9,089 nt of DNA from a virus. Its lineage: Duplodnaviria; Heunggongvirae; Uroviricota; Caudoviricetes. The position numbers were made by a program, and so were the translations under genes. The stretch lies in IMG/VR virus record IMGVR_UViG_2667527789_000012; one strand, given 5' to 3'. The notes under the pieces are model-generated. The model saw only the letters and a program-made list of their open reading frames with translations. It was not told the DNA's origin and searched no databases. Below, in pieces: positions 1-1,202 of the stretch; positions within the stretch are counted from its first letter, which is position 1, and every line of letters begins with the position of its first letter.

Positions 1-55
1 GTGCACATTCCAGCCTGAACTCAGGGGTGAAGGTTCGTTTGGTTTTCTTGTTCAT
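1..55 (-). CDS. IS3-family transposase OrfA, N-terminal fragment (5' end only; continues off the window)
   Basis: ATG at 55 (minus) opens [18 protein letters not shown], which matches the K-R-x-F-[ST]-x-E-F-[KR]-x-E pattern of IS911/IS3-group OrfA N-termini. Only 18 codons are visible. Confidence 0.45.
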
Positions 56-127
56 TAAGTCACCTGTTTTGTGTTGTGGTGAGAATATCACCTTTCATCA
101 GGTGGCCAAATTTAGTGTGCCACTACA
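1..127 (-). mobile_element. Left end of an IS3-family insertion sequence (IS911-like terminal repeat plus start of transposase orfA); the element continues beyond the window start
   Basis: Minus-strand sequence at the head-gene stop reads TGTAGTGGCACACTAAATTTGGCCACC, resembling IS3-family left inverted repeats (TGAAGTGG...TGGCCACC as in IS911, recalled from memory). About 65 nt further, an SD-like AGGTG precedes the ATG at 55. Boundary placement is +/- a few bp. Confidence 0.5.
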
Positions 128-1202
128 CACCGACCATCTGCATCGGGTTATAACTGGAAACACCAATACCACGTTCAGTCAGTGACATACGGGCATATTC
201 ACGCAGGGTCATCCCGTTGTAGACATTATCACGTTCAGTTTTTTCAAACCCGGCGCGCGCCATCAGCGCCTGGCGGATCCCGTCCCCCACAAAATTACCG
301 TTACCGGCATAAATATGAGCCGGGGTATTTTTATTGGATGGCGTGGACTCGCGCCCCATCTCGTTCAACAGCTTTTCGCGGGCCTGCTCCAGCGAACATT
401 CAGGATCGGCAAGACACTGAGCCTGCAACGACTGATAACGCCCGCCAAACATGGCAAACAGATCATTAATACCGTTTACACGCGCTTTTTGCTCTGCCAG
501 GACCTGCGCACGGATGCTGTTTTCATCCACCACGGGTGCTGCTGCCTGCACTGGCGTCCGGGAGGCTGCAGGTCCATCATCCTGTACGCGTGGAGCACTG
601 TTGCGTGGCGGAGTAATCATATTTCGAATGGATTCCGGCATCTTTTTAAATTCCTCTGTACGTTTTGACTGAATACATGCCATTGCCTTAACGGCTGGTG
701 TCACCTGATCAGCAAATCCCTGTGCCAGACATTCGGCACCGGACATCCAGGTCTCATCCGCCAGCATGGCAGCAATTTCATCGGTGGTTTTCCCGGTTTT
801 CTGTGCATAAGCGGGTAACAGAACCGCCTCAACTCTATCGAGCAGGTCGGCATAGGTGCGCATGTCCTCCGCATCACCGCCCGTAAAGCCAAATGGTTTA
901 TGAATCATCATGAAGGTGTTTTCCGGCATAATGACCGGGTTTCCTACCATCGCAATGACCGACGCCATTGACGCCGCCACACCGTCGACATAAACGGTAA
1001 TGGACGCACCATGTGTTTTCAGCGCATTAAAAATGGCGATGCCTTCAAAGACATCGCCACCCGGTGAATTAATATGGAGATTAATGTGGGTGATATCGCC
1101 CAGTGCATTCAGATCACTGATAAACTGCTTCGCTGTAACACCCCAGAAACCAATCTCGTCATAAATATAAATATCCGCGTCACTCTGGTGACCAGCCTGC
1201 AT
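123..1202 (-). CDS. ClpP-like (S14 clan) phage prohead maturation protease with a C-terminal scaffold/capsid-like extension; probably C-terminally truncated by the IS insertion
   Basis: ORF 123..1463 contains ClpP-type motifs: [11 protein letters not shown], the active-site Ser context [14 protein letters not shown] and the His context [13 protein letters not shown]. Start is assigned to the ATG at 1202 (MQAGHQSD...), the first one downstream of the portal stop at 1216-1218; the first 87 codons of the track ORF overlap the portal gene and are not protein-like. The TAG stop at 123-125 lies inside the putative IS terminal repeat. Confidence 0.75.

What the first reader, a model, noticed from the sequence alone, without database searches (positions are those of the whole stretch)
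1..1202. IS3-family insertion ends the head protease/capsid reading frame; prophage is probably defective
The ClpP-like head gene's frame runs up to an IS911-like terminal repeat, and its TAG stop lies inside that repeat. An IS3-type OrfA start ([18 protein letters not shown]) is oriented away from the head gene. Lambdoid prophages of this type often encode a protease-scaffold-capsid fusion, so the 359-aa product is likely truncated and virion assembly lost, while the upstream accessory genes remain intact. This looks like a domesticated prophage remnant.
Basis: partly seen in the sequence, partly recalled or inferred. Interest (0 to 1): 0.55.

Follow-up and report, generated by a model that had tools for sequence, protein, structure and literature searches.

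The report
IS element truncates prophage capsid gene
A common jumping gene (an IS3-family insertion sequence) has cut off the capsid half of a prophage head gene in E. coli, and in the closest complete genomes it marks a 13.8-kb loss of the remaining head and tail genes; this is ordinary prophage decay.

Summary
Window 1-127 is the left end (terminal repeat plus OrfA start, minus strand) of a 1258-bp IS3-family element of the ISEc31 type. It is IS911-like but not IS911. The junction lies exactly at 127/128. The head gene (123-1202, minus strand) is the ClpP-protease/scaffold/major-capsid fusion gene of mEp460/Gifsy-2-type lambdoid phages. Its 358 native residues are identical to residues 1-358 of the 652-aa full-length protein. 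One Val and the TAG stop come from the IS tip, so the whole capsid domain is missing.

Four complete E. coli genomes match window 1-8965 at about 100% and share the junction. In them, the other IS end abuts codon 48 of the side-tail-fibre gene. Relative to an intact prophage at the same ydfJ (Qin) site, 13,807 bp are gone: the capsid domain, head completion genes, all tail genes, J and lom. There is no target duplication, so this is a deletion junction, not a simple insertion. The window also ends in a second IS that cuts the Rz lysis gene. RefSeq already annotates this locus as a pseudogene beside an IS3 transposase. This is known biology and of low interest.

The parts
1..127 (-). Left end of an ISEc31-type IS3-family insertion sequence. 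The terminal inverted repeat is at about 102-127 (the IS starts TGTAGTGGCACAC... on the minus strand). The OrfA start codon is at 55-53, and its first 18 codons run to base 2. The window stops inside the IS.
127..128 (.). IS/prophage junction. Base 127 is the last IS base, and base 128 is the first native base of the head gene.
   Evidence: Uninterrupted genomes align from base 128 onward. The same junction is present in 4 of 5,426 complete genomes.
123..125 (-). TAG stop codon supplied by IS bases 3-5.
   Evidence: IS end defined
123..1202 (-). Truncated ClpP-like prohead protease/scaffold/major capsid fusion gene. It encodes 358 native codons plus one IS-derived Val and the stop. The protease domain and the linker/scaffold part are kept. 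The capsid domain (294 aa) is lost.
   Evidence: breakpoint after nt 1144 of the 2028-nt PGAP CDS
1216..2724 (-). Lambda-family portal gene, intact.
   Evidence: Pfam Phage_portal_2; PGAP annotation
2724..2936 (-). Small ORF between the terminase and portal genes. It sits in the gpW position and has no Pfam hit.
2933..5032 (-). gpA-type large terminase subunit, intact.
   Evidence: Pfam GpA_ATPase plus GpA_nuclease
5041..5568 (-). DUF1441 protein in the small-terminase (NohA-like) position.
8632..8965 (-). 3' remnant of rzpQ (Rz, DUF2514). Its first ~55 codons are replaced by a second IS.
   Evidence: In L001 the gene would run to window position 9129. The window diverges from L001 at 8966.
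8966..9089 (.). End of a second IS3-family element (IS629/IS1203-like, beginning TGAACCGCCCCGG). The window stops inside it.

Best explanation
The window is the late-gene end of a Qin-type lambdoid prophage of E. coli, integrated in ydfJ. An ISEc31-type IS3-family element lies against codon 358 of the fused prophage head gene, which encodes a ClpP-like protease, a scaffold and the major capsid protein. The gene therefore now ends in the IS tip and encodes only the protease and linker/scaffold part.

In the four complete genomes that share this junction, the other IS end lies against codon 48 of the side-tail-fibre gene stf. The IS thus marks a 13.8-kb deletion that removed the capsid domain, the head-completion genes, all tail genes, J, lom and the stf 5' end. 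Such a prophage cannot build capsids or tails. It keeps int/xis, the early region, the lysis and cold-shock genes, terminase, portal and the protease fragment.

Shown: the IS identity, the exact junction, the truncation, the missing target duplication, and the deletion in the near-identical genomes.

Inferred: that the window's own genome carries the same deletion, because the window ends inside the IS.

Also inferred is the order of events. My preferred order is that the IS first inserted at stf codon 48. A later event at its left end (the OrfA-proximal end that lies in this window) then deleted everything up to the capsid gene, by intramolecular transposition or another IS-end-mediated deletion. 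The reason is that an unrelated prophage in strain a7 has the identical stf junction but a different left-end partner, a truncated J gene.
For: - Junction and IS identity. A member of the same 90% cluster as the transposase is named 'IS3-like element ISEc31 family transposase'.
- Truncation: 358/358 identity to residues 1-358 of the 652-aa protein. NF045540 profile coverage is 2-358 against 2-651 of 652. The Phage_capsid_4 domain lies entirely beyond the break. Plaque-forming phages carry the full-length gene.
- Deletion: in FHI_NMBU_11 and JNEC-KY202 the IS is flanked by the truncated head gene and a 5'-truncated tail fibre gene. Strain 190 has the intact gene order at the same chromosomal site, and 13,807 bp separate the two breakpoints there.
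- No duplication: the flanks read GTAAC|IS|CACCG. A genuine simple insertion of the same IS in another genome has a CTTT duplication.
- Four independently sequenced genomes (Norway, Japan twice, Canada) share both junctions, and all four match window 1-8965 at about 100%.
- Shared stf junction with a different partner in strain a7.
Against: - The window itself ends 127 bases into the IS, so the far side in the source genome is not seen. That genome is not one of the four complete ones, because it has an extra IS in rzpQ that no complete genome shows.
- No precursor with a single insertion at either site was found, so the order of events is untested.
- IS3-family elements normally move by copy-out/paste-in (textbook knowledge). 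That process does not by itself delete adjacent DNA, which favours recombination between two copies.
- Loss of virion production is inferred from gene content, not measured.
Confidence: 0.85

Rival explanations
1. Two copies of the IS inserted independently in the same orientation, one at capsid codon 358 and one at stf codon 48. Homologous recombination between them then removed the 13.8 kb and left one hybrid copy. The end state is the same as in the best explanation, and only the route differs.
For: - This route also predicts a single IS with no matching flanks.
- The IS is abundant in E. coli. It matched 630 plasmid records, and one search found up to 17 matches to the 200-bp junction query per genome, counting IS and head-gene matches together.
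- The IS does insert into this head gene as a simple insertion elsewhere.
- Copy-out/paste-in transposition of IS3-family elements (textbook knowledge) makes this the classical deletion route.
Against: - No genome with only one of the two insertions, or with both, was found among 5,426 complete genomes.
- It needs more events than a one-ended deletion to explain why strain a7 shares only the stf junction.
Confidence: 0.4
2. In the window's own genome the IS is a simple insertion and the rest of the capsid gene and the tail genes lie beyond it. On this view the 13.8-kb deletion happened only in the lineage of the four complete genomes.
For: The window stops inside the IS. The source genome differs from the four complete genomes by an extra IS in rzpQ, so it is a separate branch.
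Against: - Window 1-8965 matches all four deleted genomes at about 100%, and the junction base is the same.
- No complete genome has this capsid junction without the deletion.
- If the junction was created by the deletion event itself, every carrier must have the deletion.
Confidence: 0.08
3. The IS landed just after an intact, naturally short protease gene, so nothing is truncated.
For: None was found. In many other phages the prohead protease is a separate gene (general knowledge).
Against: - The nearest homologs (99-100% identity) continue for another 294 aa in the same frame. They include isolated phages.
- The profile and Pfam capsid domain are missing from the window product.
Confidence: 0.01
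4. The junction is an assembly artefact caused by repeat collapse at IS copies.
For: Both window ends fall inside IS copies, which is typical of short-read contigs.
Against: - The junction lies inside the window, not at its edge.
- Both IS junctions are present in four complete genomes from three countries. One of them has IS30 inside the IS and three do not.
Confidence: 0.01

Closest known systems
Head gene of coliphage mEp460 and relatives (cdtI phage, phi458, Ayreon, Tritos)
   Same: 99-99.5% amino-acid identity over the shared part. These phages have the same ClpP-like protease/scaffold/capsid fusion architecture and the same gene neighbourhood of gpA-type terminase and lambda-type portal.
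   Different: The phages encode all 652 aa. The window gene stops after residue 358 and lacks the capsid domain.
[quoted passage not shown] 2010, Virology 402:355, as cited in PMC12315714 and PMC8538268)
   Same: [quoted passage not shown] The NCBIfam family NF045540 carries that description.
   Different: I could not read the paper itself, so the maturation cleavage sites were not mapped onto this protein. Gifsy-2 is a functional phage, whereas this copy is truncated.
Qin cryptic prophage of E. coli K-12
   Same: The chromosomal site is the same: a truncated ydfJ, followed by ynfT, ydfK, pinQ and tfaQ. The accessory genes are also the same (cspI, cspB, cspF, gnsB, ynfN, ydfO-like DUF1398, rzpQ, hokD, rem, dicB).
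   Different: From my own knowledge, K-12 Qin has a different and larger late-region deletion, running from nohA straight to a stfQ remnant. Here terminase, portal and the protease half survive, and an IS marks the deletion.
IS911 (IS3 family), e.g. IS911A in K-12 prophage CP4-6
   Same: The layout is the same: TG...CA ends, OrfA, an A AAA AAG frameshift, and OrfB. The terminal 40 nt are 80% identical.
   Different: Identity is only 67% over the first ~335 nt and 63% over the next ~425 nt. It is a different IS, named ISEc31-family by NCBI for a cluster member.
VT1-Sakai (Stx1 prophage of O157 Sakai) with IS629 in the homologous head gene
   Same: An IS3-family element interrupts the same protease/scaffold/capsid gene family in a lambdoid prophage (hit H101: two pieces, annotated IS629).
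   Different: The IS is different (IS629). The gene is 77% identical. Both halves of the gene are present there, so it is an insertion without a deletion.

Membership tests
IS3 family insertion sequence | Transposase made as an OrfA-OrfB fusion by -1 programmed frameshifting at an A AAA AAG-type slippery site | tested here: met
   AAAAAAG lies at IS position 333, and OrfB is in the -1 frame. The 392-aa OrfAB has exactly the length and sequence of the PGAP 'programmed frameshift' product cluster. This part lies outside the window and was read from L001.
IS3 family insertion sequence | DDE (rve) transposase matching the IS3 family model | tested here: met
   NF033516 'IS3 family transposase', 360.6 bits against a cutoff of 160, profile positions 1-368 of 369
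IS3 family insertion sequence | Imperfect terminal inverted repeats ending 5'-TG...CA-3' | tested here: met
   TGTAGTGGCACACTAAATTTGGCCAC against TGTAGTGGTCAAGTAATATTGGCCAC, 20/26 matches. The left repeat is window 102-127.
IS3 family insertion sequence | 3-4 bp target duplication on simple insertion | tested here: met
   The same IS in strain 2017.15.01CC is flanked by CTTT on both sides.
IS911 itself (same IS, not merely the same group) | Near-identity to the IS911 reference. By the ISfinder convention, recalled from memory, this is roughly 95% or more at the DNA level for an isoform. | tested here: not met
   67% over the first ~335 nt and 63% over the next ~425 nt, compared with IS911A of K-12
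ISEc31 | Near-identity to the ISfinder ISEc31 reference sequence | not testable with these tools
   ISfinder is not available. The only indirect evidence is that a member of the same 90%-identity protein cluster is named 'IS3-like element ISEc31 family transposase' by NCBI.
ClpP-like prohead protease/major capsid fusion protein (NCBIfam NF045540) | N-terminal ClpP-related head maturation protease domain | tested here: met
   NF045542 at 217 bits, residues 9-167. Pfam CLP_protease at 125.5 bits. The AASMAS and MIHKP motifs, which hold the ClpP catalytic Ser and His by analogy, are present in the sequence.
ClpP-like prohead protease/major capsid fusion protein (NCBIfam NF045540) | C-terminal HK97-fold major capsid domain in the same polypeptide | tested here: not met
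   The window product covers only profile positions 2-358 of 652 and has no Phage_capsid_4 hit. The full-length relative has that domain at 377-672. It is a truncated member, that is, a pseudogene.
   The flanks lie 13,807 bp apart in strain 190 and read GTAAC|IS|CACCG. This was tested in the four near-identical complete genomes, not in the window's own genome.
Qin-type prophage at ydfJ | Integration in ydfJ with the ydfK-pinQ-tfaQ end and the cspI/cspB/gnsB/ynfN accessory genes | tested here: met
   Annotation of L001 and L009. The window carries cspI, gnsB, ynfN and a DUF1398 gene.

The most novel reading that the evidence does not exclude
The retained fragment is not just debris. It is a catalytically complete ClpP-like protease with the scaffold segment but no capsid domain, and it still sits behind an intact terminase and portal. 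If expressed from the late operon, it could poison or hijack head assembly of superinfecting mEp460/Gifsy-2-type phages, acting as a dominant-negative exclusion factor. The same IS is repeatedly found at deletion junctions in lambdoid late regions, including an identical stf-codon-48 junction in an unrelated prophage. That could reflect a recurrent, targeted route to such domesticated remnants.
Probability: 0.04. Interest if true: 0.5.

Novelty: already known. Interest (0 to 1): 0.1.

Why it matters
It matters little beyond annotation. It documents one more way in which a Qin-type prophage is disabled: an IS-marked deletion removes the capsid domain and the whole tail module. It also identifies the IS as ISEc31-type rather than IS911. 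RefSeq already labels the gene 'incomplete; missing C-terminus' next to an IS3 transposase.

Practically, this prophage should not be counted as intact or inducible to infectious particles in prophage surveys. The recurrent appearance of the same IS at deletion junctions in lambdoid late regions is a modest lead for studies of prophage domestication.

Tried and rejected
- A Pfam call with a wrong frame for the 18-codon OrfA stub failed. The OrfA was instead read from the full IS in L001.
- I looked for a target duplication. There is none at this locus.
- I looked for precursor genomes with the IS at only the capsid site or only the stf site. None has the capsid junction alone. The only extra carrier of the stf junction (strain a7) is itself a deletion, with a truncated J gene.
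- I looked for the window's right-hand rzpQ::IS junction in complete genomes. There are none, so the source genome was not identified.
- I tried to read Effantin et al. 2010 to place the maturation cleavage sites. The paper is not held, so only secondary citations were used.
- PGAP and PLSDB annotations give only 'IS3 family transposase'. The ISEc31 name came from a cluster look-up.
- The Rfam isrC hit at window 1-59 was rejected as an sRNA gene here. It is the 5' part of the IS OrfA region matching half of the model, cut off by the window end.
The missing flanks were read with get_sequence instead.

Full report
**What is in the window**

Six-frame ORFs and Pfam show a lambdoid late operon on the minus strand:
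- a DUF1441 protein in the small-terminase position (5041-5568)
- a gpA-type large terminase (2933-5032)
- a small gpW-position ORF (2724-2936)
- a lambda-family portal (1216-2724)
- a ClpP-like gene (123-1202)

To the right lie Qin-type accessory genes: cspI with its cspA-type thermoregulator leader, ynfN, gnsB and a DUF1398 gene. The 3' part of rzpQ follows.

Window 1-8965 matches four complete E. coli chromosomes at about 100%: FHI_NMBU_11, JNEC-KY202, JNEC-KY174 and CFIAFB20190167. In these genomes the prophage sits in ydfJ, the Qin site.

**The observation**

A megablast of window 1-1300 found 2,022 genomes holding at least 80% of the query. Every uninterrupted copy aligns from base 128 onward. 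Four genomes align from base 1. The junction is therefore at 127/128.

From FHI_NMBU_11 I reconstructed the element by removing an IS30 that splits it there. The result has these features:
- length 1258 bp
- ends TGTAGTGG...CCACTACA, with 20/26-matching inverted repeats
- a 103-aa OrfA starting [18 protein letters not shown]
- an A AAA AAG slippery site
- a 392-aa OrfAB

OrfAB scores 360.6 bits on NCBIfam 'IS3 family transposase' against a cutoff of 160. Identical copies are common on E. coli plasmids. A member of its 90% protein cluster is named 'IS3-like element ISEc31 family transposase'.

Compared with IS911A of K-12, the terminal 40 nt are 80% identical, but the first ~335 nt are only 67% identical. 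'IS911-like' is a fair description of the end. The element is not IS911.

The minus strand reads ...GGT G|TG TAG, so the last Val and the TAG come from the IS tip.

**The gene is truncated**

The 359-aa product is 358/358 identical to residues 1-358 of the 652-aa protein of an uninterrupted prophage in strain 190.

In PGAP numbering, which adds 23 residues from a GTG start, the full protein has CLP_protease at 31-191 and Phage_capsid_4 at 377-672. The break falls after codon 381. NCBIfam NF045540, 'ClpP-like prohead protease/major capsid protein fusion protein', is matched over profile positions 2-651 by the full protein. The window product matches only 2-358.

Isolated phages encode the full 652 aa at 99% identity or more. 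They include mEp460, cdtI phage, phi458, Ayreon, Tritos and HannyBb. [quoted passage not shown] 2010).

**It is a deletion junction, not a simple insertion**

In FHI_NMBU_11 and JNEC-KY202 the other IS end abuts a tail-fibre ORF that begins at an internal Met. Comparison with strain 190 shows this is codon 48 of stf. Strain 190 has the full gene order at the same chromosomal site:
- fusion gene
- DUF2190 gene
- head-tail and tail genes
- tape measure
- L, K, I and J
- lom
- stf, tfaQ and pinQ

There, the two breakpoints lie 13,807 bp apart. The flanks read GTAAC|IS|CACCG, so there is no duplication.

As a positive control, the same IS inserted near the 3' end of the fusion gene in strain 2017.15.01CC. 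It has a CTTT duplication and intact downstream genes.

Only four of 5,426 genomes carry the capsid junction, and all four carry the stf junction. The rest of that prophage is annotated as largely intact: int, xis, exo, dicB, repressor/cro and the lysis genes. It also carries another IS3-family copy and a frameshifted cspF.

**How the deletion arose (inferred)**

Strain a7 has a different prophage at the bio locus. It carries the identical stf-codon-48/IS junction, but the other IS end lies in a truncated J gene, again without a duplication.

Two routes fit these facts:
- A constant right-end junction with variable left-end partners suggests an initial stf insertion followed by one-ended deletions.
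- Equally possible are two direct copies followed by homologous recombination.

No single-insertion precursor was found, so I cannot separate the two routes. I slightly prefer the first. Further no-duplication junctions of the same IS occur in other lambdoid late regions: lom/FI in MS 145-7 and stf/adhP in an O112ab:H8 strain.

**Caveat**

The window ends 127 bases into the IS. Its source is not one of the four complete genomes. At 8966 the window diverges from them into the end of a second IS3-family element. That element is IS629/IS1203-like and begins TGAACCGCCCCGG. It removes the first ~55 codons of rzpQ. No complete genome has that junction.

The 13.8-kb deletion is therefore inferred for the source genome from the shared junction and the match of 8,965 bases at about 100%. 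It is not seen directly. The rzpQ lesion is a second, independent sign of decay that is visible in the window itself.

**Verdict**

This is a standard case of IS-associated prophage decay at a well-known cryptic-prophage site. RefSeq already annotates it as a pseudogene next to an IS3 transposase. Novelty: already known. Interest: low.

Noticed in passing
window 8966-9089 (and rzpQ remnant 8632-8965): The window's right end is the terminus of a second IS3-family element. It is 90% identical to IS629 copies in Stx phages and 100% identical to copies elsewhere in the four related genomes. It is inserted in the Rz gene rzpQ and removes its first ~55 codons. No complete E. coli genome has this junction. 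Both window ends stop inside IS copies, which suggests the window is a whole short-read contig.
   Followed up: partly
L001 10563-11783 (inside the IS, outside the window); L010 1542-2762: In FHI_NMBU_11 the ISEc31-type element is split by IS30 directly after ...AAAAAAGGCTAC, with an AC duplication. This is the homologous dinucleotide at which IS30A splits IS911A in K-12 prophage CP4-6. It suggests an IS30 hot spot just past the frameshift site of IS911-group elements.
   Followed up: partly
L004 9101-10358 (strain a7, prophage at the bio locus): The identical stf-codon-48/IS junction occurs in an unrelated lambdoid prophage at a different chromosomal site. There the other IS end lies in a truncated J gene. 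Either this IS has an insertion hot spot at that stf position, or an stf::IS module has moved between prophages by recombination.
   Followed up: partly
L006 (~3212-4469), L007 (~3704-4961), L008 (~2871-4128): The same IS, in the same orientation relative to the late operon, sits at other junctions without a duplication in lambdoid late regions. These are stf/adhP in an O112ab:H8 strain and lom/FI in MS 145-7. It also occurs as a simple insertion with a CTTT duplication near the 3' end of the fusion gene in 2017.15.01CC.
   Followed up: partly
window 1-59 (-): Rfam isrC ('Hfq binding RNA') matches the 5' part of the IS OrfA region (59.7 bits, model positions 1-59 of 123, cut off by the window end). 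The Rfam family apparently overlaps IS3-family transposase sequence, so this is not an independent sRNA gene here.
   Followed up: no
window 8030-8415 (-): A cspA-type thermoregulator leader lies upstream of cspI (112.8 bits). This is expected for a Qin cold-shock gene.
   Followed up: no
window 1202-1271 (-): PGAP starts the fusion gene at a GTG at 1271, overlapping the portal gene by 56 nt. The ATG at 1202 gives a 652-aa full-length protein that matches the 652-position NCBIfam profile, so the ATG is the more likely start.
   Followed up: partly
phage record AP000400.1 (VT1-Sakai), hit H101: The homologous protease/scaffold/capsid gene of the Stx1 prophage of O157 Sakai is interrupted by IS629. 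This is an independent example of IS3-family disruption of this gene family.
   Followed up: no
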